NCBI GenBank assembly: GCA_964459075.1
Contig: CAYWKE010000001.1
Span: 4,626-68,625 of the forward strand
DNA length: 64,000 nucleotides
Direction: 5' to 3'
Source: an uncultured Candidatus Saccharibacteria bacterium
GTDB taxonomy: Bacteria > Patescibacteriota > Minisyncoccia > Phycocordibacterales > UBA12088
Positions within the stretch are counted from its first letter, which is position 1. Each line of letters begins with the position of its first letter. The translations under genes were made by a program, and so were the position numbers. Shown piece by piece: positions 32,001-56,503 of this stretch. Below the pieces are notes generated by a model. It was not told the origin of the DNA. It was given only the letters and a program-made list of their open reading frames with translations, and searched no databases.

Positions 32001-35000
32001 CGGTCAGTACGTTGCCTGAGCCCGTGAGGCGAAGGAGGTCATCGCCCGCATTGAACGTGTGATTCCCCAGAATGGTGAAGGTGCCCGAGATCGTGGTCGT
32101 TCCCGCACCGACCTTGGAGGTCGACGCCGAGGAGCCGTTCCCTAGGGTGAGGTCATGGACGTACCAGTCACTATCGCCACCGAAAGGCCCCTCACCCTCA
32201 AGGTCGAGTGACCCGTCGGTGAGGTTGAGGACACCGTTCCCTGAGAGCGAGCCTACCTCAAGAGTGATGGTCGTTGTGCCGAGAACCGTGCCATCCGTGA
32301 GGGCGATCGACTGGTTCACGGTGAGCGGATCTTGGATGGTCCACTCGCCTCCCGCGCCCTCAAAGGTCATCGTGTAGAGATCATCCGGTGAGGAGATGCG
32401 CTTGCCGGTCGTGGTCGCCACGAAGCGCAGATCGGCGGTCGCGGTCGTGAAGGTCGAGGCGCCATCAGCGATCCAGCTGCCGCCTACGGTGACGGTCTCA
32501 CCTCCGAGCATGGTGAGCGTAGCACTGCCGGCCAGGCGCAGCGTACCATCCTCAAAGAGTCCAGAGCCGCTACTCAAAAGCGTCACGTCACCTTCTGGGG
32601 TGAAGGTCTTTCCGCTCCACACCAACAGCGCAGTATCGTGAGCGATGGTGAGATCGGTAGGGAGGGTGGTCGCCGTGAAGGGAATGTCCGCATCATCAGA
32701 GGAGTCGTAGGTAGCGAGGTTCGCGGTCGTCAGCGCTGCAACATCCTCGTGACGCAGGATGACGTAGCTCTCGTAGAGATCGAAGTCTGCGATCGCGCCC
32801 GTCGGGGTGCGCGATACCGTCGCGGCTCGCTCACCTCCACCTGCGTTGTCGAGGTACGCCATGATGTCGGCGTCGCCTGAGAACTGCACTCCACCGACCG
32901 AGTAGGCACCGGTGACCGGATCACACGAGCCGGTGTACGACGAGCCCCCATCCACCACGACACGTACGACATTCGCGGTCGCACATGCTGAGCTGCCCGC
33001 ACCCGCACCCTCATCTTCGTACACGGTGCCCGATATCGTGACCGTAAAGCCAGAGTCATCCCAGCGAATGTTCCCGGGGTTGCCTCCGGGATCATCATCG
33101 AATGCCTCACCTGCGAACGAACCAGTGGTGTCGCGGAACCACCAGTAGCTTGCGGGTGAACCCGTTGCCGAGACGTTGCTGCCCGTTGCCACGCCTGAGG
33201 AGGTCGCGAAAGACAGGCCGAACCACTGCGAATCCGGGTTCTCATCGATGGTTGTCGCGTCAAGCGAGAGTGAGGTCGCTCCGTCTGTGGAGAGTACGAA
33301 CGCGATCGGCTCAAAGTTCGTGACGGTCGTCGAGGCGAGAAGCTCAAGGCCTGAGGTCGCGGTGTCCGTGAAGGATGCGTATGCCGCGCTCAAGCTCGCA
33401 CCCGATAGAGTGAGGTCGTAGGTACCACTTCCCTGCGCGGCGACCGAGGTCGTTGCGGTCGAGGTGCCGACGATCGAGAGTGCTGCGCTCCCCTGGTACG
33501 TTGCAGACGCGCCGTCAGCAAAGCGCACCGAGACCGGCCTCGCTGCAGGGCCCGCAAGTGGTGTGAAGTCGAAGTCCGTTCCCGCACTCCAGTAGTCGCC
33601 ACCCGATGAGCGCCCGTACGAACCCCAGATGTACAGCTCGCCATCGTTGCCCGAGTGATCCTGCGAGTAGATAGAGCCCGAGGGATCAACGGCGTAGCTC
33701 TGTGCGTCACTGTTCCAGAGACGAATGTCGGTGTTCGGGCCGATGCGTAGAGTACCGTACGATTCGTCCGCAGCCGCCTTGGCGCCTAGCGTGTAGTTCG
33801 TGGCTGAGGTGAGCGCGAGGGTCGAACCACTCCAGACGGTTGCCGCGCCGATGGTGTTCACCAACTCGCCCGCGACCTCAATGCGCGTGCCCGTGGCTGC
33901 CACGAAGGATGCTGCTGCCGCGAGGGTCCAGTCGTTCGTTGAGGTCGCATTGGCAATGACCTCCCAGCCACCCGCGCCGCTGTTGACGGTCACGTCATAG
34001 AAGGGGTTGTCGCCCGGATCGATCGTAAAGCCGGTCGTGGTCGCATCGAACTCAACCTCACCGAAGCCCGCCGTGAACTCACCTCCTGCAGCATCGAAGT
34101 CGCCGCCAACGGTAAGCGTATCGGTCGGGAAGTTCACGAGACCGCTCTCAATGGTGAAGTGGCGGGCCACCTCAGCATCAAGATCAACAAAGGTGCGACC
34201 TGGACGACTCTCTTGGCTGGAGGTAGCCATGAAGGTTGCCGGGGCGTCCTGGTTGTTGTACTCAGTCGCGTACCAGCCTGCAGCGCGCGAGCTTGTTGAG
34301 AAGCGTAGCTCATCGAGAAGCCCTTGGAGTGCCTGACCAGGATCGAAGTTGTACTGCCCAACATCCTGCTCTTGGCCGATGACGAGGTCGTTCGCGGTGA
34401 TCGAGAGGGTGTCGTGGGTCACTCCAGGGTTCTCGGTCTCCTGTACACCGTTGTAGAAGACATTGGAGTCATCTGGATTGTCGAGACGTTCTGAGACGAA
34501 ATAGTTCCACACCCCGCCGTTAGCTGGAGGAGCGATTGGGTAGTTCGCACTGGTACCCACCCCAGCCCCTGTGTACTGCCGATATTCGGATGCACCGTTG
34601 AAGAAGAGCAAGTACTCGTTGTTGTTCCCCGCATTGATACCCGAGACGATCGCGAAGGAGTCTGATTGTGTCGTGTTGACCCACCAGGACGCGATGAGGT
34701 CATCACGTCCATCGACGAGCGAGATGGGGAGGTTGATGAAGTCGCCAGCGTTGCCATCGAACTCCTGACCGCTCCCCAGCTTTCCGCTCTTGCCGGTGGC
34801 ACCTATCCTATCGTCACCATCAAAGCCGTTACCCGTCGAGTCGGTGTAGAGATCGTTGGTCGTGATACCACTCGCATCCTCTTGTAAGTGGAAGACCGCG
34901 AGGTACTCCGCCCACACAGCGTTGCGGCCGTTTTGGTCCGCATCGGCAACCCCGGTGTCATCTGGATTCCCATAGTAGACGTAGAAGCTCGTATCGACCG

Positions 35001-38000
35001 TGCTCGAGAGTGACGGCGCGAGGAAGTGCACCTCACCGGTCCCTGAGGAGGTCGCGATCGCGACAACCTCACGCGGTACGAGGGTGGTACCGTCGTCGGT
35101 CGTGATGCGGATATCATCGCCGTCACCCTGCACGCTATCGAAGAACTCAGCCCCCAGGATGGAGAGGTCGAGGTAGACCGGGAAGTCCGTGACGTTCGTA
35201 TCTACCTGGCTCGCCTGAATGGTGATCTCAGTGCGGTTGAGCCACGCTGTGTCGAGCCAGTCGGCGCCACCCACACCCAATCCAGTGAAGGTGACATCGT
35301 AGAACTCGGAGCCGCCTGCACGCACCGTTTGGGGACCAGCGAGTGTACGAAGGATGACCTCGCCATCGTTGGCATCGAACGAGCCCCCCGCATCGATCGT
35401 GAAGTCGCCCCCGACCGAGAGTGTGTCCGAGGGAAGAATGACGTTCCCTTGCGAGACGAGGAAATCGTCTGACGTGGTCGCGGCACTATCGAGGAAGGTC
35501 CACTCACCCGTGGGGTTATTGAAGCGCAGTTGGTAAAAGTCGGAACCACCAGCCTCAACCTGTTGGCCTACGGTCGCGCTGGTGAGGGTCACCTGTCCAT
35601 TGTTGTGTTGGAATGTGCCCCCCGTATTGCGGAAGGAACCGCCCACGGTCGTGACGCCGGTCGCAAGGGTGACGGTGCCGGTCGCGATGGTGTAGTCGCG
35701 CAGCGCGGTCACGTCTGGCTGTGAGAACGCCCAGTTGCCGCCCACACCATCGAAGGTGACGTCGTAGAATGAGGAGACCCCGGGCGTGATGGTGCGCCCG
35801 GTCGTCGTTGCCGAGAAGAGCACTTCCCCGGTGCGCGGCGTGAAGATACCGCTGTTGAGGAAGTCTCCCTGGACCTCGAGCTGGTTGCCTGCGCCACCTG
35901 CATCCAAAGTCGCTCCCGAGAGAATGCGCACATCGGTGAGGCGAATGTCAGAGCCCATGACCGCAACGCGCCCCGTTCCGGTGATGTCGATAGCGCCGAG
36001 GTCCTGCTTGGGCGTGGAGAAGTCGTTGAACGCGTAGGAGCCAGTGCCATCAAGGGTGGTCGTCGCACTTCCCTTTTGGAAACTGCCGGTACTACTGATC
36101 TGGAATGCGCGCGCGACCGTGGTCGAGGCACTGCCGGGCGAGAAGGTGCCATACGCTATCGCCAGGTTCCCGTTGACATCGAGCGGGGTTGCGAGCGTAA
36201 AGGTCGCATTACCCGAAGCGTTCCCGAACGTGAGGTTGTAGAACGATGAGGTCGCAGCACCGGTGGAGTCGATGCTTTCGGTCGTCGAAGTGGCATCGAA
36301 GCGCACGAGCGAGGTACCCGCGGCAAATCGGCCCTGGTTCTGCCACGATCCGGTGAGCGCAATCGTGTTGCCGTCAGCGATGAGCTCCCCGTCAACAACG
36401 ACGTCGTGGGTCGCGACGTTCCCCGAGCCCGCGCTGTCCGGGCGGTACGTGGTCGAGGCGAGAACGTAGAGGTTCGCATCGACGCAGCCCCCGACCGCGC
36501 AGGTATCCAGATCATTGTTCACATCAACATCGAAGAAGAGGTCGGGATCGCCCGCAACCGAGTTATCGTACTGCTGGAGATCCGCGTTGGTGAAGGTCAT
36601 CAGCTTGTTCGATCCCAGCGTCAGGTGGCGCTGGTAGAGTTCCATGCCCTCCTCGTCCCCGATACCGTCGTAGACCGACACCGCAACCGCACGCGAGGTC
36701 GTTGCCCCACCGTCGACAAAGACGGTCATGACGGTACCAGGCAGCGCGTTGACGTTGGTGAGGGTCCACGTACCATCCGGCTGGATGGTCGCGGTCGAGG
36801 GTTGGATGACCCCGTCGAGTGCTACTCGCACGGTGCCCGAGGTCACGAGCGCGGAGCGATCGTAGGCACGCGCGATACCCGACACCTCGATACCCTCAGA
36901 CCAGGTCACGCTCCAGTCCTCAACGACCGGACAGTCACCCGAATCGGTGCAGGTGAAGGCGGCCACTAGACGGATCTCACTGTACGTTAGGAAGTCGAGG
37001 TCCCCGAGGTCGATGGGTGAGGTGGTCGCCCCGGTTGCGTTGGTAGGAATGTCAGCAGGAGGGATGAGGAACCAGTCAGTACCGGTCGCGTACTCGACGT
37101 AGTAGCGAATGGTACTCGTCGCTGGCGTGACATCCCTCCACGTAACCTCACCCCACTTCGGCCCCGTGCCGTCGGAGAACGTGATGGTCTCTGATGTTGC
37201 GGTACCGGTCAGCGCTTCGTTGATACGCGTGAGCGTGCCCGTCGCCAGCTCGAACGCCAGCACGCCTACCGACTCAGTTCGGTGACCACGAGATCCCCCA
37301 TCACCGTTCTCTTCATCGATCGTTGCATAGATGAGAGCGGATGTTGCGGGAACACTATCGTTATACACTGCCCAACCTCCATCTCCTCCCTTTTCACCGA
37401 GTTGCTGCACAAGGGCCACGAGAGGTGGTCCGTTGGTGAACGGTGCAGTGAAGTTGATCGCGTCAGGATCGCTACCGTCAACACTATCGATGGTCACCAC
37501 GGCGTCGAATTCTCCACCGCTGTTCGTCCCTGTTCCTACGTCGATCGCGATCCAATCGATATCCTCGATCATCGGCGGCGGTGTCTGGAAGCTCGCACCG
37601 AGCGCGACACCGAACTGCGAGTTGGTTGGTTCATTGGCTAGTGCTGCGCCGTCATTGACGAACGTCGTCACCCAGGCTGAGTTGTTCTCGGTCGCGACCG
37701 TCGCCAGCACCACCGGGCTCCCATCGAACGAGATCGGGAACGCGATCGTGCGATACCCATCTGAATCGGAGTACCCATTGCTCTGAATGTCGGTGACGTC
37801 TTCTGCGGTGTCCGCGACGAGCTTCACCGAGCCCGTTTCATTCTCCACACTCCACGTTCCTGACTCCATTGCAATCCAGTCGATCGTGGTCGTGCCTGTG
37901 GGATCGGTCGTACCGTCGTCATTGTCGACCTTGATCTCAAAGCTGTTGGTCGTCTTGTTCCTCACGCGCGCGGTGCGCTGCCGCACGTCAGGTGCGTCGT

Positions 38001-41000
38001 AGCGAACCGAGGCGACCACAACGAGGTCGGAGAAGTCTTGTGAGAGTGTTACCGGTGTCCAGTCAGAGCCGTTCACGTCGATGGTACCGTACTCACCGAT
38101 CACACTCTGTATCTCGAGGTTGTCATTCACACCCGTGATACCAGTGAGCGAGTTTCGCAAGAACTGCTCGTTGGTGGTCTGGTGCCAGGTGGAGACCGCT
38201 GTCGTGCTGGCGATCGTGAAGCTTCGCTCGTCACTCCAGAACGAGAAGAGGTTGTCACCTGCAAGATCACGTGCGCGCACCCGCCACCAGTACGTGTCAC
38301 CGTCGATGAGGTTGATGCTTGAACTTGCGGTGAAGACGATCTCTTCGCCTGAGGTGAAAGGCGAGGTCTCTGGGTTGCCATCAGCACGCGTAAAGGCACC
38401 GAACGGGTCACTGTCTGACGTGAACGAGAGAGTTCCAGACGCAAATGCGGTTGAGGAGGATATCTGGATCTCGTACACCAGCGATTCATTCTGCGGGTCT
38501 ATTGTCTCGAAGAAGAACTGCGTGGTGGACGATGCTACCTGCTCGTAAGGGAAGGGCGACGTTGTGGTTGGTGTCAGCACACCTTCGCGCCACTGTACGG
38601 TCCAGTCGTAGAGGATGGGGCCAGTCGTTGTCGAGGGTGAGGAGAATATGGCCACAGGCCGAATAACATTGTATGTCTCAGTATCCAGATCAATGAGATC
38701 GAACGGTCCTGTCGTGGTACCTGCTTCGTTGCCCGGCAAGTCCTCGTCGGGGATTGGGAGCCATGAAGAGGAGAGGTACTGGAGCTGGTAGGTGATCGAG
38801 CCCGTGGTCTGATCGTCATTCCACGAGAAACTTCCCCACTTGTTGCCGATCGCACCGTCATCAAAGTCTATGGCTGTGCCTTCAAGTGTTCCATCAAATG
38901 CATTCTCAATGGTCCCAGATGCAGCGGAGAACCCAATGACGCTACCCTCCTCATCTGCGTGGCCATTTCGCGTGTTATCAGGTCCGTCCTCATCAACTGA
39001 TCCGTAGAAATCGGTCACCGTCACCGCAACCTCAGTGTCACGGAGCGCCCACGACCCGTTGCCGCCATTCTCACCACCTTGCGCTACGATGTAGACCACC
39101 GGCAGACTCAGGAACTGCCGCGTCCAGGGAATGTTGTGCGTCGGATCATCGAAGATACCATCAAGACCCAGATTGCCGCCGGTGGTCTGGAAGGCGGCAT
39201 CCATCTCGACGCCGGCACTGGTCGTCCCGTGGAACTCCTCGAATGCCACATAGTCGATCTCCTCAGCTGCGGTGTGGTCGTTGTTGGCATAGCTCGTCAA
39301 AATTTGGAGACGCAAATTGGTATCGCTGGGCGGGTCCCCACTGTCGCCATCATCTGCTTTGGTTGCGGCCCACGTGGGGTCGTTATCGGAGGCAAGCGTG
39401 TGGAGTACAACTGGCGTGCCCGAGAAAGCGGGTGCGAAGACCACATTCGCAGGAGTTCCTACTTCTACGGAAGCTCCACCATCCCACCCAAATTGCCCAT
39501 CGGTCGTCTCACTTCCCGCGACCACCCGCACACCACTTCCTCCGTCATTGATGGTCCAGTCCCCTGCTTCCACAGCGAGCCAGTCGACCACGGTCACACC
39601 CGAGGGGGTAGGCGTTTGCGCGTGGTTATCGACCTTGATCTCAAAGCTTGTCTGCCCTTTGTTGCGTACACGGGGACTCCGTGGGTCAACGGTCTCGTCG
39701 TAGCGCGGACTTGCCACGACGACGAGGTCATCGTAGCTACCGGACAGGTTCACGGTCGTCCATTCGTTGTTGTTGAGATCGACGGTTCCAAACTCAGCCA
39801 CGACACCGCCCAGCCGCACTTCATCTGATGTTGAGGCAAACACGCCCCGGAGCGAGTCGGTCACGAATTGCTCCTCGGTCGTCTGGAACCACGTCGAGAC
39901 GTCAATGGTCGTATCGGTCGTGAACGATAACGGAGGATCGGACCACGGTCCCCACTGGTCAGAGCCGCCCGGGTCGCGTGCGCGAATGCGCCAGTAGTGG
40001 GTCACATCGTTGTCCAATGCACTTGCTCCCGGAACAGTGAAGCGGATCGTCTGACCAGCAGAGAATGGCGCCTTGTCACTCGTGTTTGAGATGTTCGTGA
40101 ATGAGAGAGGTGAACCGGTGACCGTCGAATTCACATCAACGAGTGTCGAGGAGAAATCAGTGGTCGTCGCGAGCTGCACCTGGTAGTGCAGGTCGTCGCC
40201 GGCAAGATCGGACGCGGTGAAGGTCAACTCTGGGGTGAGATCTCCGGTCTTTGCATTGTCAAAGGGCGTACGCGCGATCGGCTCATCCGGAGCCGAATTA
40301 GTATCGAGCTGCGGGTAGTTGGCGGGCGAGATCACCGCGGTTCCCCCGACGCCCACCATGCGGAAGCAGTACGAGCTGTTGGTCTCAGGTGCATTCGCTT
40401 CGAGTACCCAGTCAAACTCAAGGATATCGCCTGGAGCATAGTCAACACTCAGTGCAGCTGAGTTGTTCTCTTCTTCATACGTTCCAGCATCTGTAGTACT
40501 GGCTAGCACTGTTGCGGAAATGGCTGACTGTTCTGCGACCGACGCGTTGTCGAATCCTCGCCACGGAGCACTCGACGAGCTTTGCTGCTCGACCGGGTTC
40601 CACGCAAGCGATGATAGGTCACACGAATCACCAATATTTGCTTGGGCAACCTCAAGCGTGAACGCATCGTCGAGGGCTGTGGACGTTGCGTTATTGAGCT
40701 GCATCGAAACACGCAGACGGAGTACATCGCCAGCCGTGATGGCCGCATCACTCCCGATCGAAGCGTTCTCATCCAAGTCTTCTGACCCCAACGGCCATGG
40801 ATCGGTCGGGGTCTGAGCGTCCTCATTGAGGTACCAACGGAAATCCTGCATGTTCCACGCGGGCACGTTGGAGGTCTCCTGCGCACCAAATGCAACAGTA
40901 GGGTGTGGGAAGGCGTACTGCCTGGACTGCGGCGCTGCGATGAAGTTCTGCTCGTCATCATCCGTTTGATCTTCCCATATAGCGTAGAACGGCTTGGGTG

Positions 41001-44000
41001 GCGTGTCGGTGGAGATGATGCGCCAGCCGGGATCGAAGTTCGCACTGTTATCGTCCCCAAAGTACGCTTTTCCTGGGTTCGCACCAGCTGGGGTACAGAC
41101 CCCCGTCGCTTGAACACTTCCGGTTGCGGTGACGATCGCGAGGTTTACCTCACCCGAATCCGGCTCACACGCGACCGCAATGTACGAGCCCGTATCGGTG
41201 AGCATGAACTCGGTCGCAAACTCTTTCTCGGGCCAGTACGAGGTCGCTTCGATTCCGTCACCATCTCGCGACTGCGTACTCATGATGGGCGCAGAGGACG
41301 AAGAGATACGCACAGCGGCGCCATTCCCGTCACCTCCCGACGTACAGTTTCCACTTGCGTCGTACATGGCGGTGACATCCTGACCTGAAACTGAGGCACC
41401 CGTGCCTCCTGAGCAGGTGATCTCGTAGCTCGTGCCCGCCTGCGTCTGGCCCACGCGCGTATCCAGCGAGTTGATACCGTAGAGCTCACGCGTCGTTGCG
41501 GGGTAGAGTGTGATCGCATCACCCGTGTTGAACTCGTACGCGAGGAGGATCGGGGTCGTTGCGATCACCCGAGCAATATCTCCATCAACGATATCCTCGA
41601 CCGGGGAGGCGCCGGTCGAGGTCGCCAAGACCTGCGTCGTAGCAAGCGTGGTGTCGTTGTAGAGCTGTACCGTCGAAGAACCGAATGGTGAGAAGAGGTG
41701 GAACTCGTCGTTCGCGGAACTACCGGTTCGCACGGCGATGGTGAATAGGTCCGTGGCAAAGCTGATCGGCACAAGCGAATCTTGGTTCCCACCACCCTCG
41801 AGCTTTGTCGCGATGGGTCCAAGTGCGCGCACCACCGAGGTCGCGGTGAACGTACCCCCACCATAGGAAATGCTCTCTCCCAGATCGAGAGAGGAGGTTG
41901 CGCCAGTATCAAGCTGGACGACGTTACCATCGATGAGGCTGTACACCTCGATAGTATCGCCGCCGCCGAAGTCGTCGCGCACCACGTGGTGCATATCAAC
42001 AAGTGACGTGTGGGTGAATGGAGCAAACGCATCACTCAATGACGTGGCGAGGCCATTCCCGTAGTAGAGGTACATGGTCGAGGTGCTGTTGGCGGGTATC
42101 TCATCTACCTGGACCCAAATAGCTGTCGTTGAGCCGTTGTAGTCAAAGTACTGCACCCAGTGATCGAGCTCGGTGACCGTGTAGGGATCGTTCACCTCGG
42201 GGGTCGAGGTTGCGTAGAAGTCGGTTGCGGTGGCCATGTTCCGATAGGTCGCCGAGAGCCACCCGTCCGAACGCACGACGCTCGAAACACGCACCATATC
42301 AAGGCGACCATCGAGGGTCAGCTGGCGACCCGGCCGCAGGTCGCCCAGCGTGAACGTGTTCCCAAAGTTCTCATCTCCCGCATTCGTGTAGCTCAAAACC
42401 TGATTGTCGTTCACCTTCACGATCGTGCTCCCTCCCTGAACGGCGGTCGCACTCATGTAGTACCACTGTCCAGTGACCAAATTTGCGGCCGACGACTGAT
42501 TACACGTTGCACTGCTCTGGTAGGCACAGTAGCGCAGCTCATCAGCAGCTCCTCCCGTACCTCCCAGCGTGAACCACGGCGCGTACACACCCCCGCTGCC
42601 CGGAGCAGACGCGAGGATCGTATAGCCATACTGATCCGTACGTCGATCGCCACCACCGTTGAAGCCGATAAGTGCATCGGGATTCACCCACACTTCAACT
42701 GTGTGAGTAGTGGATATACCCAGATCACCGTGACTCACATCATCCTCGAAAAAGTCTTGAGCGTTCCCGAAGCGTCCGTTCGTTTCCGCAGGATTATCGG
42801 AGGACTGCTTGGTACCGTCGTTACTTGACCCGGCACTGTTCTCGATCGTGGAGCTCGTCAGGTCTTCCATGTGGGTCACGAGGGCAAAGTTACTATCCCA
42901 CACATTCACCGCCCCGTTCGCGTCAGTGTCCGCGACCAGTGGTGCTGCGGCGTTGCCGTAGTACACGTAGTAGGTCGTATCGGTCGTGGAGGAAAGCGAG
43001 GTCGCACGGAAGTAGAGCTCACCGGTTTGAGCGGTCGTGGACGCAGACACGATCTCCCGCGGGACCTGGTTTCCGTCTGCGTCTGCAACACGGATGTCCG
43101 CATCGACCGAGGTAGCAATGCCACTAAAGAACGTCGGGCCCAGATCGGCAAGATCAACGTACACAGGGAAATTCGACAACTCCTCGTCTACCTGACTCGC
43201 TTGGATCGTGATCGGAATGCGGTTGGGCCATGCGTCATCGAACCAGTCCGCTTGATCTTCTCCCTGTTCACTCGTGAAGCGAATGTCACCACCATCCTCG
43301 CGCACACTTGCCCAGAAATCTGAGAGGGATTCATCGATCTCGACGTAGATCTGGTACTCAGAGAGATCGTTCGCGTTGCCAAGGTTGTCGATCTCGATCG
43401 GGATGCGGTACTGCCAGAAGCCGTCCCACCACGGGTCGAGGAGGCCGTAGCTTCCCTTCTTGCCGATCGCCTCGATCCAGAACTCGCCCAACGTGCGCGC
43501 AGGGTAGCTGATCTCCATCTCGAAGTAGAGCGTCTGCCCCGGCTCGATGCGGTAGGTATTTTCCGAGCTGTTCTTTACATCAAAGTACTCGGGGACCGGC
43601 TTGCGCGGCAGGCCGCCGCCGAAAAAGTTGGCGAGCCGGCGGAAGTTGCCGATCTCCATGTTGCGCTCACCGGGTGCGACCGAGTGCGCCATCCAGGTGT
43701 CGCGGTAAACCGTCTCTTCACGTGAACCGATACGAGCACGATCATCGACACAGGTGACCCCATCCTCAGAAAGCTCGTCACACCAACGCTCCTCTTCACT
43801 CGAGGCACAGCTGTAGCGTTGGCGCTGCGTGCTGGCTGTGCTGGTCGCCTCGGACTCAGCGCGCTCGGCAAGAAGTGCCTGAAGCAACTCCTCATTCGTG
43901 AGGTCGGGATCGGTGAAGTCGATACTCTCCTCAGGACGCTCGTCTACAGTAGCGGTCTCTTGCGACTCAACACTCGTTGTACTGGTTGCTGGAGTGGGCT

Positions 44001-46299
44001 CCACTGCCACATCTGTCACTTCCGCTTCGAGTTGCGCCCCGTCCGCATCCTCCTGCGCACCTGGTATTGGCGCATCCAATGCGTCGGTCTGCTCGGGTTC
44101 ACCCACAGACTCCGCACCATCGCCTGCAACTGCTACACTCTCCTCTTCTGCAGCCTCCTGCTCAGCAAGGAGTGCTGCCATCTCTTCGTCACTCTCAACT
44201 CCACTCTCACGCGTTCCTCCTTGCTCGCCCAGGGTAGTGGTTGCGGCGGGAGACGTCTCGTCTTGTTCTTCCACGTCTTCGGTATCATCAGCATCGCCAG
44301 GGGCTGTTTGAGGTGTCGTCGTCGGTATCGTGGACTCGGCGTCGGGCGCAGGTGTTTCAGTATCAGCTCCACTCAGTTCTTCTTCATCTTGTGCGTCGGC
44401 AGGTTCGGGCGTGGGTGCTGGCTCAGATGGTGCATCCGTTTCTTCGGAAGACCGCGTGTCAGATGCTTCGATCTCCTCAGACCCATCTGCATCATCGACA
44501 AGCTCCCACCCCGCCTCACAGAAGTAGCCGGTCTGCGCATACTCAGGTATGCGCAGGGTCTTGGGGACGTTGCGCGTCCACTGCTTCAGCGAGGTCACCT
44601 CCCCTTTTGCGTCCGGTAGGTGCAGCATGAGTCGGAAGTCATCCTGCCGTTCGCTCTCATTGGTGACGTTGAAGTACACCGTGGCTTTCGTGAGGCCATG
44701 GTAGGTCCTTCGGTCGCTCTTGATGATGAGGTTCTCGTTGTCATTGCTGTCGGTGAAGGTGAAGTCGATGCGCTCTTCTCCGGTAAGCAAGATGTCTGGG
44801 TGACGCGACGCGTCCTCAGCACGAAGCTCAGGAACGACGTTCTCACCGTCGATGGTCTGATCATCCTGCCATCGCGGCGCATCGTAGGTTGCATCGATCC
44901 ACAGACTCTCGAGGTACACGTTGGTCTCAACGTCACTGTTGCGAACGAACTCGAGCTGCACCACCAACTCATCGAGCTCATCCCACGCATCGATCTCGGG
45001 AAGTGCAAAGAGGAAGTGGCCGCCGTTCTGACTGTTCGAGAGCTCGTTCGTTATCGCGATCTCACCAGCGAGGTACCAGTGGTCGCGGTAGCGATAGCGG
45101 ACGAAGACCTTATCATCCTGGAACGCCTCACCAACACGCTCCGCACCAAGAGAGAGGCGCAGGGCGAGCGTGCGAATATCCTCATCCGGCACGAACGAGC
45201 CGATGGAGAATCCTTCGAACTCGAGGATGTTGCAGGGGGTACCACGCACCTCACAGATGGTTGCGGCCTCATCAGCATGCTCGGGGCGCGCTGGCGTCGT
45301 TTCATCATCGCTCGTATCGGCACCACCACCACCTTCATCGGTGCCAGCATCGTCGTGTGAGTCGCCCGCGGACTCGTCTTGAGAAGCGCCGGATCCAGAG
45401 CTCGCTCCCCCTGCAGATCCCTCAGTCGCCTCCTCAGTACCCTCTCGTGGTGAGGTGGTCGCCGTTGTCGTCGCACGTACTTCTTCCTGCAGGTCTGTTT
45501 CGGGAGCCACTTCCGCGCTTGAGGTCGCCTCGGTGTCCACCGCCACGTCGTCACCCTCATCTACTTCGACCTCATCCGCTACCTGCTCTTCTTCCAACTC
45601 CTCCTCGTTGGATCCACGTGCGGTATCCTCTTCGATAGCTTCGGCTTGATCCTCGACCGGTGACCCCTCGGATGGTGCCTGTGGTGACGACTCGTCCGGT
45701 GTGACGTTCGTATCTGTGTCGGGGTCGAGTGTGTCGGTCTCTTCGATCTCTGGCTCGGGTTCTGGGATGGACTCGGGATCTGGCGTTGGCTCGGGTTCTG
45801 GTTCTGGCTCTTGGGTGGGTTCGGGGTCTGGTGTAGGTTCAGGGTCTGGTGCCGGCTCCTCAGATACGACCGGCTCTGCTGCTGGCTCCTGTGCTCGCGC
45901 GGTGAGGGGCACGAACCGATGCGAGAGTCCCCGCACCACGTGCGGCAGGTACTCGATGAGCGCGGTCGTTGTTCCCTGTACGTCCGATGCTGTTGTGGTC
46001 GGCGTCGAGGTAGGGGTCAATTCAGGTATGTCGTCGATCTCACCTTGGGAGAAACCGATAAATGCCGAGTTCTCTTTCGAGAAATCGCTCAGAATGGCCT
46101 GGCCTGAGAGTTCCTGCGAACGAGCTGCGTCCACGTTCTCCCATCCCGCACCGCGCACATCGCTTGGAAAAATGTGGATGGTCTCTTCTTCGATCGATGC
46201 CCACCCGTACGCACTCCACAATAGGACAGAGCCCACCACGCCTACCAATAAAAGCGCGGCTCTCCAAGCAGCGTTCCTCCTTGAAACGGAAAACCTCAT
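26002..46299 (-). CDS. giant modular cell-surface protein (~6765 aa): signal peptide, acidic Pro/Glu tracts, four DUF2341-like domains (three followed by a LamG-like domain), FN3-like domains, beta-solenoid-like repeats, large internal duplications
   Basis: Single uninterrupted ORF 26002..46347 (20.3 kb). The track start is a GTG, and the ATG at 46297-46299 gives a classical signal peptide 'MRFSVSRRNAAWRAALLLVGVVGSVLLWSAYGWA'. DUF2341-like motifs occur four times ('WQYRIPIEIDNLGN...', 'WPNRIPITIQASQVDEELSNFPVYVDL...YYVYYGN', 'WLNRTEITIQASQVDTNVTDFPVYLDL...FYVYYGN', 'WGYRKRITVSNSGGALTNYPIQVTIDH...IYVYYGN'). Three of them (the second, third and fourth) are followed by a LamG/ConA-like region ('...TVEVWVNPDA...LTLDGRLDMVRVSS', '...LIASWWVNTT...LDELRFS'). 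Codon usage and composition are coding-like throughout. Confidence 0.85.
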   Translation of the reverse strand: MRFSVSRRNAAWRAALLLVGVVGSVLLWSAYGWASIEEETIHIFPSDVRGAGWENVDAARSQELSGQAILSDFSKENSAFIGFSQGEIDDIPELTPTSTPTTTASDVQGTTTALIEYLPHVVRGLSHRFVPLTARAQEPAAEPVVSEEPAPDPEPTPDPEPTQEPEPEPEPTPDPESIPEPEPEIEETDTLDPDTDTNVTPDESSPQAPSEGSPVEDQAEAIEEDTARGSNEEELEEEQVADEVEVDEGDDVAVDTEATSSAEVAPETDLQEEVRATTTATTSPREGTEEATEGSAGGASSGSGASQDESAGDSHDDAGTDEGGGGADTSDDETTPARPEHADEAATICEVRGTPCNILEFEGFSIGSFVPDEDIRTLALRLSLGAERVGEAFQDDKVFVRYRYRDHWYLAGEIAITNELSNSQNGGHFLFALPEIDAWDELDELVVQLEFVRNSDVETNVYLESLWIDATYDAPRWQDDQTIDGENVVPELRAEDASRHPDILLTGEERIDFTFTDSNDNENLIIKSDRRTYHGLTKATVYFNVTNESERQDDFRLMLHLPDAKGEVTSLKQWTRNVPKTLRIPEYAQTGYFCEAGWELVDDADGSEEIEASDTRSSEETDAPSEPAPTPEPADAQDEEELSGADTETPAPDAESTIPTTTPQTAPGDADDTEDVEEQDETSPAATTTLGEQGGTRESGVESDEEMAALLAEQEAAEEESVAVAGDGAESVGEPEQTDALDAPIPGAQEDADGAQLEAEVTDVAVEPTPATSTTSVESQETATVDERPEESIDFTDPDLTNEELLQALLAERAESEATSTASTQRQRYSCASSEEERWCDELSEDGVTCVDDRARIGSREETVYRDTWMAHSVAPGERNMEIGNFRRLANFFGGGLPRKPVPEYFDVKNSSENTYRIEPGQTLYFEMEISYPARTLGEFWIEAIGKKGSYGLLDPWWDGFWQYRIPIEIDNLGNANDLSEYQIYVEIDESLSDFWASVREDGGDIRFTSEQGEDQADWFDDAWPNRIPITIQASQVDEELSNFPVYVDLADLGPTFFSGIATSVDADIRVADADGNQVPREIVSASTTAQTGELYFRATSLSSTTDTTYYVYYGNAAAPLVADTDANGAVNVWDSNFALVTHMEDLTSSTIENSAGSSNDGTKQSSDNPAETNGRFGNAQDFFEDDVSHGDLGISTTHTVEVWVNPDALIGFNGGGDRRTDQYGYTILASAPGSGGVYAPWFTLGGTGGAADELRYCAYQSSATCNQSSAANLVTGQWYYMSATAVQGGSTIVKVNDNQVLSYTNAGDENFGNTFTLGDLRPGRQLTLDGRLDMVRVSSVVRSDGWLSATYRNMATATDFYATSTPEVNDPYTVTELDHWVQYFDYNGSTTAIWVQVDEIPANSTSTMYLYYGNGLATSLSDAFAPFTHTSLVDMHHVVRDDFGGGDTIEVYSLIDGNVVQLDTGATSSLDLGESISYGGGTFTATSVVRALGPIATKLEGGGNQDSLVPISFATDLFTIAVRTGSSANDEFHLFSPFGSSTVQLYNDTTLATTQVLATSTGASPVEDIVDGDIARVIATTPILLAYEFNTGDAITLYPATTRELYGINSLDTRVGQTQAGTSYEITCSGGTGASVSGQDVTAMYDASGNCTSGGDGNGAAVRISSSSAPIMSTQSRDGDGIEATSYWPEKEFATEFMLTDTGSYIAVACEPDSGEVNLAIVTATGSVQATGVCTPAGANPGKAYFGDDNSANFDPGWRIISTDTPPKPFYAIWEDQTDDDEQNFIAAPQSRQYAFPHPTVAFGAQETSNVPAWNMQDFRWYLNEDAQTPTDPWPLGSEDLDENASIGSDAAITAGDVLRLRVSMQLNNATSTALDDAFTLEVAQANIGDSCDLSSLAWNPVEQQSSSSAPWRGFDNASVAEQSAISATVLASTTDAGTYEEENNSAALSVDYAPGDILEFDWVLEANAPETNSSYCFRMVGVGGTAVISPANYPQLDTNSAPDEPIARTPFDNAKTGDLTPELTFTASDLAGDDLHYQVQLATTTDFSSTLVDVNSTVTGSPLSFTNISNTSDKAPFSAGQTIRFTVPGASALDNDVTHYWRIRARDPGGSDQWGPWSDPPLSFTTDTTIDVSTWFQTTEEQFVTDSLRGVFASTSDEVRLGGVVAEFGTVDLNNNEWTTVNLSGSYDDLVVVASPRYDETVDPRSPRVRNKGQTSFEIKVDNHAQTPTPSGVTVVDWLAVEAGDWTINDGGSGVRVVAGSETTDGQFGWDGGASVEVGTPANVVFAPAFSGTPVVLHTLASDNDPTWAATKADDGDSGDPPSDTNLRLQILTSYANNDHTAAEEIDYVAFEEFHGTTSAGVEMDAAFQTTGGNLGLDGIFDDPTHNIPWTRQFLSLPVVYIVAQGGENGGNGSWALRDTEVAVTVTDFYGSVDEDGPDNTRNGHADEEGSVIGFSAASGTIENAFDGTLEGTAIDFDDGAIGNKWGSFSWNDDQTTGSITYQLQYLSSSWLPIPDEDLPGNEAGTTTGPFDLIDLDTETYNVIRPVAIFSSPSTTTGPILYDWTVQWREGVLTPTTTSPFPYEQVASSTTQFFFETIDPQNESLVYEIQISSSTAFASGTLSFTSDSDPFGAFTRADGNPETSPFTSGEEIVFTASSSINLIDGDTYWWRVRARDLAGDNLFSFWSDERSFTIASTTAVSTWHQTTNEQFLRNSLTGITGVNDNLEIQSVIGEYGTIDVNGSDWTPVTLSQDFSDLVVVASVRYDAPDVRQRTARVRNKTTNSFEIKVDNDDGTTDPTGTTTIDWIAMESGTWSVENETGSVKLVADTAEDVTDIQSNGYSDSDGYRTIAFPISFDGSPVVLATVATENNSAWVTTFVNDGAALANEPTNSQFGVALGASFQTPPPMIEDIDWIAIDVGTGTNSGGEFDAVVTIDSVDGSDPDAINFTAPFTNGPPLVALVQQLGEKGGDGGWAVYNDSVPATSALIYATIDEENGDGGSRGHRTESVGVLAFELATGTLTRINEALTGTATSETITFSDGTGPKWGEVTWRDVTPATSTIRYYVEYATGTDWFLIPPADIPTNATGATTSPIDLGDLDFLTYSEIRLVAAFTCTDSGDCPVVEDWSVTWSEGIEVSGIARAYDRSALVTSGTVRVALDGVIQPSTATIQPDGTWTLTNVNALPGTVMTVFVDGGATTSRAVAVSVYDGIGDEEGMELYQRHLTLGSNKLMTFTNADLQQYDNSVAGDPDLFFDVDVNNDLDTCAVGGCVDANLYVLASTTYRPDSAGSGNVATHDVVVDGELIADGNTIALTGSWQNQGRFAAGTSLVRFDATSTTESIDSTGAATSSFYNLTFGNASGNATFTLATPLDVNGNLAIAYGTFSPGSASTTVARAFQISSTGSFQKGSATTTLDGTGSYAFNDFSTPKQDLGAIDITGTGRVAVMGSDIRLTDVRILSGATLDAGGAGNQLEVQGDFLNSGIFTPRTGEVLFSATTTGRTITPGVSSFYDVTFDGVGGNWAFSQPDVTALRDYTIATGTVTLATGVTTVGGSFRNTGGTFQHNNGQVTLTSATVGQQVEAGGSDFYQLRFNNPTGEWTFLDSAATTSDDFLVSQGNVILPSDTLSVGGDFTIDAGGSFDANDGEVILRTLAGPQTVRAGGSEFYDVTFTGLGVGGADWLDTAWLNRTEITIQASQVDTNVTDFPVYLDLSILGAEFFDSVQGDGDDIRITTDDGTTLVPREVVAIATSSGTGEVHFLAPSLSSTVDTSFYVYYGNPDDTGVADADQNGRNAVWAEYLAVFHLQEDASGITTNDLYTDSTGNGFDGDDRIGATGKSGKLGSGQEFDGNAGDFINLPISLVDGRDDLIASWWVNTTQSDSFAIVSGINAGNNNEYLLFFNGASEYRQYTGAGVGTSANYPIAPPANGGVWNYFVSERLDNPDDSNVFYNGVQETENPGVTHDTLSITANDLVIGQEQDVGQYNFDPGQALQGLLDELRFSTSSRAAGWYATEYNNQDAPATFMATSSQESRPGRTFVDLDAEVARHFTIESGLVNFPTDTLTVGGDFDAAGGEFTAGFGEVEFDATTTGFTIDPGDNPFYDVTVNSGAGGWEVIANATSTNDWTLAAAASFVAATGTRIEVAGELVNTIGAATVWSGSTLALTSATNYTLGAKAAADESYGTLRIGPNTDIRLWNSDAQSYAVDPSGSIYSQDHSGNDGELYIWGSYGRSSGGDYWSAGTDFDFTPLAGPAARPVSVRFADGASATYQGSAALSIVGTSTATTSVAAQGSGTYDLTLSGASLSAAYASFTDTATSGLELLASTTVTNFEPIAFVLSTDGATSLSLDATTIDENPDSQWFGLSFATSSGVATGSNVSATGSPASYWWFRDTTGSFAGEAFDDDPGGNPGNIRWDDSGFTVTISGTVYEDEGAGAGSSACATANVVRVVVDGGSSYTGSCDPVTGAYSVGGVQFSGDADIMAYLDNAGGGERAATVSRTPTGAIADFDLYESYVILRHEDVAALTTANLATYDSSDDADIPFTATTLPTDLTIAHDTALLVWSGKTFTPEGDVTLLSSGSGLFEDGTLRLAGSATLTMLGGETVTVGGSWIADGASTFTTATADLRFVATTTGKRISSPDDLYTMTFEGAGGEWTIQDPLTVNQSIALTDGTVLGTTTITLEVGSLSGNGVLNLTDGSLDLEGEGPFGGDSDWYVHDLTLGNGSSASTSKVGAGTTTISGTFTILGNHTFNAGDDLLRLTGSGNVLTGAGTFNAQTATTTYAGTSGVVIAARIYHDLVLAPEGAGSPTYTLAASTISVGRDLYVGNGSTSVSVTANTNDPILDVAGDFLIATSATYIAASANDTRIAGSYRNTGTLTAPITSTFVFDSADTGETIEPGDSPFANVRFLSASGGWAVLASATATAGWYLSDAASFAVASGTRIAVGGPFENELLDAATDWSTSTLALYGGASFSVNASSSDGDVYDELEVSGGTDVRLWNSVAATYDVGSTSSLYSQDHDRNDGDLYIWGAYQPTMGSDHWSYATDFDGTLLDATSSRPVSVVIASGSDIVVRGASLSVLGSTTATTTIEGDGAGTYALSVAGGSFSMRFASLRGVDAAGLTFTGAPTIGVFENNDLELEIDAGTIMTVGGTVIDANPLKTFRSNRFGTSTGVATGTNIIATGTSIATWRFPQAVGVLEGEDFDIDPGGDPGYLIWDDSDALITVQGRVYLDEGTTLVGSSVCDGSALNVTLVVGGAPATSTSCSDGPAVFTFTGIGFTEGDPLIVYLEGASGIQAATVTVDPVTNILDMDLYQDRVIVRHEDVNPITIVNMANHDSDDDANIPFDAEDAATDTLTLAAGTKLIVWGSKEFAPGGTMTLTPLGSGAPEDGSLHLYADALLTAQGTETYQIGGSFLVNGGASFAAASSTLEFTATTTGKSLDLNSSPLNTVRFIGAGGGWSFAESAATTTGDIEQAAGAVTFPSANLAINGSFEVTGGSFSAATTSTWRFISDSGAENVRLAGSAAPSMTFVGSSTFTFPESQATSTGDVSLSAGAAVFPSGTFAVGGSFDVSGGTMTAPGELRLVGSDLGETITLAGQSLASLTTAGDGSWSFAESAATTTGSLRALGGSLTAPASTLSIGGSFFAASSTTFSAGAGGMRFVGAGGGNTITTNSALLNEVIVNGTGSWSLTDNASTTGAVRLLAAGGFTQNAGTTLEVGGVFENRIGGATTWAAGSTLYLNSGLNFLVGAKTDAVETYATLQVGSTTDVALWRSSATVYDVATTGSLYSQDHLDQDGDLYIWGTYERTSGNEYWRHSIDFDGTALSGVNRRGVDVRVASGSQLLFTGGTLDIIGASGFVATTTIDVQGGSGAFGWEIAGGTFNMQRFTVSGLDAQGLTFTDAPTVSQLTQGEFILSADGGTMLTVASSTFDQNPTKLFAQVGFSTSTGVATGSNVTVSGTTANFWTFVNEFGVLAGEDYDLNDTDLCGAVRWADSTCLEVSQAHYRFRADNDGEGVPAEEWFDPSWGYRKRITVSNSGGALTNYPIQVTIDHVPGVGKMQPDFDDLRFTDSTGTTSIPYYIESKVDDAEAVVWVTLPTIPAGGTTPIYVYYGNAGVGSAASSSETFSFIDDFEDNDLDEYAPSSGLDKTRFGLSTSFNYQGAYGLAAASTQEGLQTENGGITQDAAGSAFGPGETLRVYQYVDTAEFDEPCFLFAVQGFGDNYAVCLDQFFNGDRVTLAQDVDWSDDSGTVVASTSVSFATDWYRIEIDWLLNDTLNVSVVRDSTDTEIASFSYSAGSPSEGGIGFSHWGQNGGFDFVTVRPYSATEPTTITGTEQVNDGASWSAAQDTVNARQQAEQNFRLRISVENSGAQITGQQFRLQYAEKGSFGTCEAVPSVEYDDVPAVAGCGLSPICMVASPQFFDQDPTTQLLDTDFMGTFVPGYLVEDSSNQSTSMDLDANEFTEIEYALEFTANANQNAYCLRTTDGGLELDSYPRVPEVRVLQIPVLGDWTLAGNYNGVIPITLTEGTTTAVIATGTVTDLNGSGDIIGATSTLYRSGLPSGEACTADDNSCYRLGNESCALDCAGTSCDITCTADVQFFAEPTDIGAFSGEHWLSYVIVEDRSGEVATATSLATELDTTFGITLTTEGIDFGTLTLGTTTGSVASSTLRNTGNTAIDVDLAGSNLTAPGSEILASNIRYATSTFTSASCAICNFLATTSNQFELDLPKPTSTVPIIDDIFWGITIPTGISGVTHEGINTFFAVSD

Positions 46300-46463
46300 T
46301 GAGTTGTCCACACAGACCGATAGGGTCTTGCGAAACAGACACCCCACAACCCCCGATCTGTACTCTCAGTATCTCACGAAGGGTACCTGCCAACCAGCAA
46401 AAACGTTGCCAAAACTGTGTATTTCTGATTGCTTTTGCGTCCGAGTGCGTACCCGACAACATA

Positions 46464-48007: not shown

Positions 48008-48025
48008 GCTAAAACGTGTCGCGGA

Positions 48026-48502: not shown

Positions 48503-48659
48503 AGCTGGGTCCCTTGGTTACGCGTTGCTAATGTACTCATCCCCCGATACGGTAGCGTGTTCGCCCCCACGGCGTCTGCACGCTGCATCAGACCTATATA
48601 GTATACCGAACAATCGAGTGCTCTGGTGAGTTCGTTTTGTGGATAAAACGTGTACAACG

Positions 48660-50564: not shown

Positions 50565-50571
50565 GTTCCCG

Positions 50572-51042: not shown

Positions 51043-51056
51043 AGTATCACTATACC

Positions 51057-52160: not shown

Positions 52161-52276
52161 ATAGTTAGGGACAATATGCTCGCCAGTGTACCCCAGGTCA
52201 ACAACTCGTACCAAGTGGCGCTATACACAAAGACCCGCACGTGTGCGGGTCTGTGTGTCATAAGCGCCAAGCGTCT

Positions 52277-53470: not shown

Positions 53471-53506
53471 GCGTAAAATGCTAGCTAGCGTTTCACTTGT
53501 AATAGC

Positions 53507-53526
53507 GAGTTCGCAGCGGCGAACTC
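53507..53526 (-). promoter_or_regulatory. hairpin in the putative 5' leader of gene 52277..53470
   Basis: 8-bp inverted repeat GAGTTCGC/GCGAACTC with loop AGCG, 37 nt upstream of the ATG at 53470. A TATACT element lies further upstream at 53652-53657. Confidence 0.3.
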
Positions 53527-56433: not shown

Positions 56434-56503
56434 TGTACGGGTGATACAGGTGGCGCGAAAGGGATGGTCGTGCATAACGGTAAGAACAAAAAGGAACAAA
56501 AAG

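What the first reader, a model, noticed from the sequence alone, without database searches (positions are those of the whole stretch)
40332..40845. A ~170-aa domain with near-identical motifs shared between the two giant proteins
Giant 1 aa ~1835-2005 and giant 2 aa ~1575-1745 (nt 58498-59011) both contain 'LR(L/I)R(V/M)S(M/V)Q', 'SSSAPWRGF(D)NAS', 'AGTYEE(E/D)' and '(S/T)YCFRMV' in the same order and spacing. Degenerate copies, 'FRLRI...FRLQY...C...W...(Y)C(F/L)R', recur at giant 1 aa ~6340-6500 and at least three more times in giant 2 (modules around aa 690-820, 1040-1175 and 2150-2215). The two giants are otherwise built from different modules. I do not recognise the domain. It is a candidate ligand-binding unit exchanged between the two genes. 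I score this 0.55.
Basis: seen in the sequence. Interest (0 to 1): 0.55.

Follow-up and report, generated by a model that had tools for sequence, protein, structure and literature searches.

The report
Unnamed beta-sandwich repeat of giant surface proteins
The motif-sharing stretch is a real ~175-residue beta-sandwich domain absent from Pfam-A and NCBIfam but common in giant surface proteins of ultra-small (Patescibacteria) bacteria; it most likely acts as a rod-building spacer and was not recently swapped between the two genes.

Summary
Both giants lie on the minus strand: g1 at 26002-46347 (6781 aa) and g2 at 56504-63733 (2409 aa). They share a homologous ~175-180 aa domain (BLASTP E=1e-24; family-profile E=1e-43 to 1e-55).

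- **Copies:** g1 has two, at aa 1833-2015 and 6333-6515. g2 has four, at aa 662-839, 1014-1192, 1572-1758, and a split copy (1766-1881 plus 2180-2232) around a ~300 aa insert.
- **Databases:** no match in Pfam-A, NCBIfam or PDB sequences.
- **Distribution:** 2655 cluster representatives match, mostly giant proteins. Named members are Patescibacteria, plus one Chloroflexota. Copy number reaches 21, in tandem arrays with ~8 aa linkers.
- **Disulfide:** two cysteines co-occur or are co-lost, which suggests a disulfide.

The exchange idea is not supported. The two copies are 37% identical in protein and 48% in DNA, with saturated synonymous sites. Their nearest relatives are copies at matching positions in orthologous proteins.

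Best reading: a stalk/extender module that can also serve as a "split" scaffold projecting a lectin-like insert. This is a new member of a known kind, of modest interest.

The parts
26002..46347 (-). Giant ORF g1 (6781 aa). It has a single N-terminal hydrophobic segment at aa 25-50. Its Pfam matches are all to DUF2341; the best stretches are at aa 1391-1444 and 6076-6153.
   Evidence: Full-length orthologs exist: P0051 (6835 aa, 45% identity) and P0098/NBD73424.1 'DUF2341 domain-containing protein [Patescibacteria group bacterium]' (72% identity over 4137 aa).
40303..40851 (-). Domain copy g1-A (aa 1833-2015). This is the copy in the finding. It belongs to the subfamily with the WRGF / YEE / YCFRMV motifs.
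   Evidence: AlphaFold2 model pLDDT 90.5, pTM 0.88.
26803..27351 (-). Domain copy g1-B (aa 6333-6515). It is a divergent subtype with four cysteines and a degenerate first strand.
   Evidence: E 7e-44. The copy is kept at the same position in P0051 (6403-6574) and P0098 (3701-3870).
56504..63733 (-). Giant ORF g2 (2409 aa). It has a single N-terminal hydrophobic segment at aa 18-43 and BclA_C-like domains near the N-terminus.
   Evidence: Full-length ortholog P0012 (2417 aa, 50% identity).
61217..61750 (-). Domain copy g2-1 (aa 662-839), of the 'HWRxDxGxE ... GGDWD' subtype.
   Evidence: E 2.4e-55
60158..60694 (-). Domain copy g2-2 (aa 1014-1192), the same subtype as g2-1. It is part of a ~350 aa super-repeat (g2 501-932 ~ 851-1282).
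   Evidence: E 8e-54
58460..59020 (-). Domain copy g2-3 (aa 1572-1758). This is the second copy named in the finding.
   Evidence: E 1e-43
58091..58438 (-). Domain copy g2-4, N-terminal piece (aa 1766-1881). It matches profile positions 3-107 and begins 8 residues after copy g2-3.
   Evidence: E 2.8e-9. The same split is seen in ortholog P0012. Unsplit relatives of this subtype exist, e.g. P0053 1053-1227.
57197..58090 (-). Insertion of ~300 aa (aa 1882-2179) inside copy g2-4. It holds a likely H-type-lectin-like / phage tail-fibre-tip-like module.
57038..57196 (-). Domain copy g2-4, C-terminal piece (aa 2180-2232). It matches profile positions 124-174 and carries the ExEF ... YFFRLYD ... YPSL motifs.
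   Evidence: E 4.6e-5
39379..39753 (-). g1 aa 2199-2323: a module homologous to the g2 insert. It is a second module type shared by the two giants.
   Evidence: 30% identity, E 1e-7
37348..37941 (-). g1 aa 2803-3000: a second copy of the module homologous to the g2 insert.
   Evidence: 27% identity, E 3e-8 to 1e-10

Best explanation
The shared stretch is one copy of a ~175-residue, all-beta, Ig-like sandwich domain that matches no family in Pfam-A or NCBIfam. It is a building block of giant, N-terminally anchored or secreted cell-surface proteins of Patescibacteria (the CPR bacteria).

**Proposed mechanism**
- Shown: the domain is an independently folding module. In many relatives it is strung head-to-tail with ~8-residue linkers, up to 21 times.
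- Inferred: these arrays form a rod or stalk that extends from the cell.
- Inferred from cysteine co-variation: a disulfide between C77 and C162 (numbering of the g1 copy) staples most copies.
- Inferred: the nearly invariant R-x-R, E-x-[ED] and Y-C-F-R strand motifs form the conserved core and a charge network. The long loops at about residues 100-140 vary between subfamilies.
- Shown: in these two giants, single copies are interspersed with other modules.
- Shown at sequence level, with moderately supported fold assignment: the fourth g2 copy is a 'split domain' whose variable loop hosts a ~300 aa lectin-like insert.
- Inferred: the domain therefore mainly spaces and presents binding modules. 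It is not itself the ligand binder.

**Why the two copies look alike.** g1-1833 and g2-1572 belong to the same old subfamily. They have not been exchanged recently.
For: - **Homology and copy number:**
- **Family size:** 2655 cluster representatives at E≤1e-3 and 1480 at E≤1e-10. Of the 153 related proteins examined plus g1 and g2 (155 in all), 70 exceed 2000 aa and 32 exceed 5000 aa.
- **Tandem arrays with ~8 aa linkers:** P0004 has 13 copies, P0005 has 12, P0006 has 10 and P0007 has 21. Identity within a protein is 47-76%, and up to 92% between neighbours.
- **Array proteins are otherwise blank:** they have no Pfam domain beyond one C-terminal galactose-binding-like domain.
- **Surface location:** each giant has one N-terminal hydrophobic segment.
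- **Disulfide:** the Cys pair is both present in 253 copies, both absent in 129 and mixed in 18 of 400 (Fisher p=1e-84). Both states occur within at least 4 separate subfamilies.
- **Split copy:** conserved in the ortholog. Its insert resembles H-type lectins.
- **Precedent:** Ig-like split domains that project ligand-binding domains are described in RTX adhesins (PMC12077191). Tandem spacing under 35 aa is the published working criterion for stalk domains (PMC8286594).
- **Taxon:** PEP synthase is 70-72% identical to Patescibacteria MAGs. Named homologs come from Patescibacteria, Paceibacterota, Parcubacteria and Kerfeldbacteria.
- **No exchange:**
Against: - There is no experimental evidence for any member of the family.
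- Model coordinates could not be inspected. So the Cys-Cys distance, the position of the termini (needed for a linear rod) and the placement of the conserved charged residues are all unverified.
- In g1 and g2 the copies are mostly solitary (only g2-3 and g2-4 are adjacent), not in long arrays. Their role here could differ from their role in the array proteins.
- The domain is nearly twice the size of classic Ig-like extender domains. It has long, well-ordered loops with conserved aromatic residues (W84, W97) that could form a binding site.
- The lectin-like assignment of the insert rests on a low-confidence model (pLDDT 65.5) and on Pfam hits below threshold.
- The Cys co-variation is inflated by shared ancestry.
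Confidence: 0.6

Rival explanations
1. The domain is itself a ligand-binding (adhesive or lectin-like) unit. Its long subfamily-specific loops and conserved aromatic and charged residues would recognise host-cell surface molecules. Tandem repetition would raise avidity rather than build a passive stalk.
For: - It is a ~175 aa beta-sandwich, the size of many carbohydrate-binding modules.
- W84, W97, R45, R47, E145 and R164 are conserved.
- The loop region at residues 100-140 differs sharply between subfamilies.
- The literature notes that adhesive domains can also occur in tandem, so the stalk/adhesive boundary is blurred (PMC8286594).
- Patescibacteria giants are generally proposed to mediate host attachment (PMC8080830, PMC11809585).
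Against: - Arrays of 10-21 copies with short fixed linkers make up nearly the whole protein. That is typical of stalk repeats.
- One copy is used as a host for a separate lectin-like insert. This points to a scaffold role.
- The most conserved residues sit in beta-strands, not in the variable loops.
Confidence: 0.2
2. This is the first reader's idea: the domain is a cassette recently moved or gene-converted between the two giant genes of this genome.
For: - There are four near-identical short motifs in the same order.
- g1-1833 and g2-1572 are more alike (36-37%) than either is to the other in-window copies (17-23%).
- An exact 18-nt run lies over YCFRMV.
Against: - Identity is 37% in protein and 48% in DNA, with no BLASTN hit.
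- Codon identity at conserved residues equals the codon-usage expectation, 31 against 29.8±3.6.
- Orthologs that are 45-50% diverged keep both copies in place.
- Each copy is closer to dozens of copies in other genomes than to its supposed partner.
- The motifs are subfamily-wide.
Confidence: 0.03
3. The resemblance is a compositional or chance artefact of Thr/Ser/Gly/Ala-rich, low-complexity giant ORFs.
For: Both ORFs are rich in T, G, A, S and D.
Against: - BLASTP with composition correction gives E=1e-24.
- Profile E-values reach 1e-55.
- There are 1480 database proteins at E≤1e-10.
- The AlphaFold2 model is confident.
- The conserved positions are hydrophobic, aromatic, Cys and Arg, not low-complexity residues.
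Confidence: 0.01

Closest known systems
Stalk (extender) domains of bacterial fibrillar adhesins, e.g. the Big/BIg, SpaA/CnaB, CARDB and DUF11-type Ig-like repeats surveyed in PMC8286594
   Same: - All-beta Ig-like sandwich.
- Found in very long surface proteins.
- Repeated head-to-tail with short linkers (~8 aa, under the 35 aa criterion).
- Copies within one protein are 47-92% identical, which indicates tandem amplification.
- Often the only recognisable content of the protein.
   Different: - No sequence match to any Pfam stalk family.
- About 175 aa instead of about 90-110.
- Stabilised, apparently, by a disulfide and not by isopeptide or ester bonds. No conserved Lys exists; the most Lys-rich column is 46% Lys.
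- The hosts are Patescibacteria, a phylum not among the main ones covered in the adhesin survey.
Ig-like 'split domains' that project ligand-binding domains in RTX adhesins (Aeromonas AhLap, Marinomonas MpIBP, Vibrio FrhA; PMC12077191 and references there)
   Same: The fourth g2 copy is interrupted in a loop by a ~300 aa folded insert. It then resumes and completes the fold. The insert looks like a carbohydrate-binding (H-type lectin) module, and the arrangement is conserved in an ortholog.
   Different: - No RTX repeats or other RTX-adhesin hallmarks were found in the Pfam scans.
- The protein has an N-terminal hydrophobic anchor or signal instead.
- The split domain belongs to a different sequence family.
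Giant DUF2341- or FhaB-containing proteins of Patescibacteria (PMC11809585) and giant surface proteins of Vampirococcus (PMC8080830)
   Same: The protein class and phylum are the same. g1 carries DUF2341, and its closest named homolog is annotated 'DUF2341 domain-containing protein [Patescibacteria group bacterium]'. The proposed role in the literature is adhesion or host interaction.
   Different: The passages of those papers that I read list only known Pfam domains and do not describe this domain. Here the domain is delimited, modelled and counted.

Membership tests
Fibrillar-adhesin stalk domain (working definition of PMC8286594) | Copies of the same family occur in tandem, separated by fewer than 35 residues | tested here: met
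   P0004, P0005, P0006 and P0007 have 10-21 copies with ~8 aa gaps. In the window, g2-3 ends at aa 1758 and g2-4 starts at aa 1766.
Fibrillar-adhesin stalk domain (working definition of PMC8286594) | Found in bacterial surface proteins that are not enzymes | tested here: inconclusive
   Each giant has one N-terminal hydrophobic segment. No enzymatic Pfam domains were found. There is a co-varying Cys pair. Localisation itself is not shown.
Fibrillar-adhesin stalk domain (working definition of PMC8286594) | Rod-forming fold with the termini at opposite ends | not testable with these tools
   [not shown]
Fibrillar-adhesin stalk domain (working definition of PMC8286594) | The protein also carries at least one adhesive domain | tested here: inconclusive
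   [not shown]
Split-domain / projected ligand-binding-domain unit of RTX adhesins | An Ig-like domain is interrupted by a complete inserted domain and then completed | tested here: met
   Profile positions 3-107 match g2 1768-1881 and positions 124-174 match g2 2180-2232. The ortholog P0012 shows the same split. Unsplit relatives of this subtype exist.
Split-domain / projected ligand-binding-domain unit of RTX adhesins | [quoted passage not shown] | tested here: not met
   Neither giant has RTX or hemolysin-type Pfam hits. g1 ends in ...FFAVSD, and an N-terminal anchor is present. So this is not a member of the RTX adhesin family. Only the architecture is analogous.
Known Pfam/NCBIfam Ig-like repeat families (CARDB, DUF11/B_ant_repeat, Big_x, SpaA/CnaB) | Sequence match at or above the family's gathering threshold | tested here: not met
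   Five window copies and 52 diverse copies were scanned. The best hits were single-member noise: CARDB E 0.058 and TIGR01451 E 0.013.
Isopeptide- or ester-bond-stabilised pilin/adhesin domains (CnaA/CnaB, ester-bond repeats) | A conserved Lys with Asn/Asp and a catalytic Glu/Asp, or a Thr-Gln-His ester triad | tested here: not met
   No alignment column exceeds 46% Lys or 31% His. Lys makes up 1.6% of domain residues. A Cys pair is conserved instead.
H-type lectin / phage tail-fibre tip (Gp53-like_C); applies to the insert in g2-4, not to the domain itself | Pfam match above threshold, or a confident fold match | tested here: inconclusive
   [not shown]

The most novel reading that the evidence does not exclude
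The domain is not a passive spacer. It would be a previously unrecognised host-recognition module, largely confined to Patescibacteria. In this reading its subfamily-specific loops bind defined glycans or proteins on the host cell envelope, and the repertoire of subfamilies along each giant protein helps set the host range of these episymbionts.
Probability: 0.15. Interest if true: 0.6.

Novelty: new member of a known kind. Interest (0 to 1): 0.33.

Why it matters
Giant surface proteins are the main candidates for how ultra-small, host-dependent Patescibacteria attach to their hosts. Yet they are almost blank in annotation: g1's 6781 residues match only DUF2341 in Pfam.

Delimiting this domain gives a ready seed for a new family model. 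The family has ≥2655 clusters at 50% identity and comes with a confident structural model. Such a model would annotate a substantial part of many of these proteins (a median 34% of residues in the 155 proteins examined).

It would also separate probable stalk regions from probable binding regions, such as the lectin-like insert budding from the split copy. That tells experimenters which pieces to express for host-binding assays.

The finding does not reveal a new kind of biology. Ig-like stalk repeats and split-domain presentation of lectins are established in other bacterial adhesins.

Tried and rejected
- **Word-index homolog search.** It returned only 3-6 short fragments. The exhaustive representative search was needed to see the family.
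- **Genome scan with domain alignments.** With the g1 C-terminus it found nothing. The second scan used PEP synthase and only placed the window in Patescibacteria. None of those 80 loci carries the domain within 10 kb.
- **afdb50 fold library.** It was unavailable.
- **PDB searches.** Sequence searches found nothing meaningful; the best hit was a PepSY propeptide at E 0.012-0.018. Foldseek against PDB found nothing significant.
- **Phage collection.** No match.
- **Self-BLAST of whole giants.** It returned only the identity hit, so I replaced it with tiled queries.
- **Conservation of domain versus rest of protein.** The comparison across g2 orthologs was uninformative because some orthologs are truncated.
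- **Readings considered and rejected.** Recent recombination or gene conversion, a low-complexity artefact, isopeptide-stabilised pilin-type domains, and membership of CARDB/DUF11.
Full report
**1. What is at the coordinates**

The window (60% G+C) carries two very long ORFs on the minus strand. g1 spans 26002-46347 (6781 aa) and g2 spans 56504-63733 (2409 aa). The finding's coordinates, read on the minus strand, give g1 aa ~1835-2005 and g2 aa ~1575-1745. All four quoted motifs are present in both, in the same order. Composition-corrected BLASTP aligns g1 1836-2072 with g2 1575-1835 at 32% identity and E=1e-24. The similarity is therefore not chance.

**2. How many copies, and where**

I started from the two copies and iterated an HMM on the two giants. 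It converged on five full copies:
- g1 1833-2015
- g1 6333-6515
- g2 662-839
- g2 1014-1192
- g2 1572-1758

A deeper 52-sequence family profile gave E-values of 1e-43 to 1e-55 for these five. It also revealed a sixth copy in g2 that is split:
- Profile positions 3-107 match aa 1768-1881 (E 3e-9).
- Profile positions 124-174 match aa 2180-2232 (E 5e-5).
- About 300 residues lie in between.

The ortholog P0012 has the same split at the same place. Relatives of the same subtype without the insert also exist. No other ORF in the window has the domain.

**3. The giants also share a second module**

Tiled BLAST shows that g1 2199-2323 and 2803-3000 are homologous to g2 1908-2141, at E 1e-7 to 1e-10. 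That g2 region is the insert inside the split copy. So the statement that the giants are otherwise built from different modules is not quite right. Both giants also contain large internal super-repeats.

**4. Is it a known family?**

It matches no family in the libraries searched. Pfam-A (2025 copy) and NCBIfam gave nothing for the five window copies, even at E≤10. Pfam gave nothing beyond single-member noise for 52 diverse copies. PDB sequence searches with two profiles gave nothing meaningful. The only Pfam matches in the giants are DUF2341 in g1 and BclA_C-like domains at the N-terminus of g2.

**5. Distribution**

An exhaustive profile search of 1.84 billion cluster representatives found 2655 proteins at E≤1e-3, 1480 at E≤1e-10 and 329 at E≤1e-30. 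I examined 153 related proteins plus g1 and g2, 155 in all:
- 70 are longer than 2000 aa and 32 are longer than 5000 aa.
- Copy number runs from 1 to 21.
- The domain covers a median 34% of each protein.

Several proteins are almost pure tandem arrays with ~8-residue linkers. P0004 has 13 copies, P0005 has 12, P0006 has 10 and P0007 has 21. Identity within a protein is 47-76%, and up to 92% between neighbours. These array proteins have essentially no other Pfam domain.

Where a source names the organism, it is Patescibacteria group, Candidatus Paceibacterota, Parcubacteria or Kerfeldbacteria, with one Chloroflexota. All are annotated 'hypothetical protein' or 'DUF2341 domain-containing protein'. 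The window itself is Patescibacterial. Its PEP synthase is 70-72% identical to those of Patescibacteria MAGs. The closest named g1 homolog is NBD73424.1 from a Patescibacteria group bacterium. The exact sequence occurs in Logan assemblies of SRR7048222 and SRR7048223. No phage record carries the domain.

**6. Structure**

AlphaFold2 on g1 1833-2015 with the 52-sequence alignment gave a confident model: pLDDT 90.5, pTM 0.88, eight beta-strands and no helix.
- Foldseek against PDB found nothing significant (best E 0.024, TM ~0.3-0.35).

The fold class is therefore an Ig-like (E-set-like) sandwich, enlarged by long ordered loops, with no close solved relative.

**7. Conserved features across 400 aligned copies**

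Numbering follows the g1 copy.

| Position | Most common residue | Copies of 400 |
|---|---|---|
| 45 | R | 355 |
| 47 | R | 395 |
| 66 | L | 365 |
| 84 | W | 320 |
| 145 | E | 367 |
| 147 | D or E | 379 |
| 161 | Y | 373 |
| 163 | F | 374 |
| 164 | R | 385 |
| 176 | Y | 363 |
| 180 | P | 328 |

C77 and C162 are both present in 253 copies, both absent in 129 and mixed in only 18 (Fisher p=1e-84). Both states occur inside at least four separate subfamilies, so joint loss or gain happened repeatedly. I infer a disulfide, which fits an extracellular protein.

No column has a conserved Lys or His. This argues against the isopeptide or ester cross-links of pilin-type domains. Each giant has a single hydrophobic segment at its N-terminus, consistent with export or anchoring.

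**8. Was the domain exchanged between the two genes?**

No recent exchange is supported.
- The two best copies are 37% identical in protein and 48% in DNA. BLASTN finds no hit between the genes. The longest exact run is 18 nt, over YCFRMV.
- At the 66 identical residues, 31 use the same codon. Codon usage alone predicts 29.8±3.6, so synonymous sites are saturated.
- The nearest relatives of g2-1572 are copies in g2-type proteins of other genomes (53-60% identity). The nearest relatives of g1-1833 are copies at the equivalent position of g1-type giants (40-48%).
- The two copies rank 68th and 115th of 400 in each other's neighbour lists.
- Orthologs that are 45-50% diverged keep the copies at the same positions.
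- The shared motifs are signatures of one large subfamily holding 152-196 of the 400 copies. WRG[FY] occurs in 99 copies, [TS]YEE in 142 and YCFR in 214. 35 copies in 34 proteins carry RxR, WRG[FY], YEE and YCFR together.

**9. The split copy and its insert**

Pfam gives sub-threshold hits for the insert to Gp53-like_C (phage tail-fibre tip, E 0.0096) and H_lectin (E 0.16). An AlphaFold2 model of g2 1763-2236 from only eight sequences is of low overall confidence (pLDDT 65.5). The two halves of the host domain score 80-90 and the first ~180 residues of the insert score 70-85.

Two weak but independent lines thus point to an H-type-lectin-like fold. [quoted passage not shown] The architecture here is analogous, but the proteins are not RTX adhesins. 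I found no RTX repeats, and the proteins have an N-terminal anchor or signal.

**10. Interpretation**

The best-supported reading (confidence about 0.6) is a stalk/extender and scaffold domain of giant surface fibres. It meets the published working criterion for stalk domains, which is tandem copies less than 35 aa apart (PMC8286594). It has the right fold class. It also serves as a split host for a probable binding module.

The main rival (about 0.2) is that the domain itself binds ligands through its long variable loops. This cannot be excluded without coordinates or experiments. Recent exchange (about 0.03) and a compositional artefact (about 0.01) are effectively refuted.

The literature already proposes that giant Patescibacteria proteins, some with DUF2341, mediate adhesion to hosts (PMC11809585, PMC8080830). 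The passages I read do not describe this domain.

**11. Verdict**

The domain matches no family in Pfam-A or NCBIfam, is widespread, and would merit a family model. In kind, it is another Ig-like repeat of giant bacterial surface proteins. The specific idea of a cassette exchanged between the two genes is not supported. Novelty: new member of a known kind. Interest: about 0.33.

Noticed in passing
[not shown]
   Followed up: partly
window 63161-63529 (-), g2 aa 69-191, with an internal repeat at aa 224-393: The N-terminal region of g2 matches BclA_C, the TNF/C1q-like trimeric tip domain of Bacillus exosporium hairs. When the region is scanned alone it scores 43.7 bits, above the 38-bit cutoff, and it is duplicated. 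This hints that g2 might form a trimeric fibre.
   Followed up: partly
window 26002-46347 (-), g1: g1 contains large internal super-repeats: aa 2023-2590 ~ 2593-3153, and aa 4126-4750 ~ 4927-5550 ~ 5700-6020, at 30-46% identity. The best DUF2341 stretches are at aa 1391-1444 and 6076-6153. Otherwise Pfam finds nothing in 6781 residues.
   Followed up: partly
window 46511-56697 (-): A same-strand run of genes lies between the two giants. It comprises a cohesin-domain protein (46511-48007), an HSP20 (48026-48502), a Big_6 Ig-like protein (48660-50693) and four ORFs of 385-555 aa with no Pfam match. This may be a surface-protein gene cluster.
   Followed up: no
whole of g1 and g2: Lysine is strikingly rare: 50 of 6781 residues in g1 and 15 of 2409 in g2. 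Thr, Gly, Ala, Ser and Asp dominate. Cys is also rare and occurs mostly as pairs inside domains.
   Followed up: no
window 46299-46347 (-): The mechanical ORF start of g1 is a GTG 16 codons upstream of an ATG (MRFSVSRRN...) that directly precedes the hydrophobic segment. The true start is probably that ATG, which would shift g1 residue numbers by 16.
   Followed up: no
window 6545-12489 (-): A central-carbon gene run includes enolase, a 2-hydroxyacid dehydrogenase, PEP synthase and a glycerate 2-kinase. The kinase's best NCBIfam matches are two glycerate 2-kinase models (NF041176 GlyK_Thmprot, NF040791 gly_kin_Thpl), both below cutoff. After Patescibacteria, the PEP synthase's next-best relatives are DPANN archaea (57-60% identity).
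   Followed up: no
P0004 (NCBI MFC1925596.1, 2536 aa): The protein with the cleanest 13-copy array is labelled Chloroflexota, not Patescibacteria. Either the domain occurs outside Patescibacteria or the contig was mis-binned.
   Followed up: no
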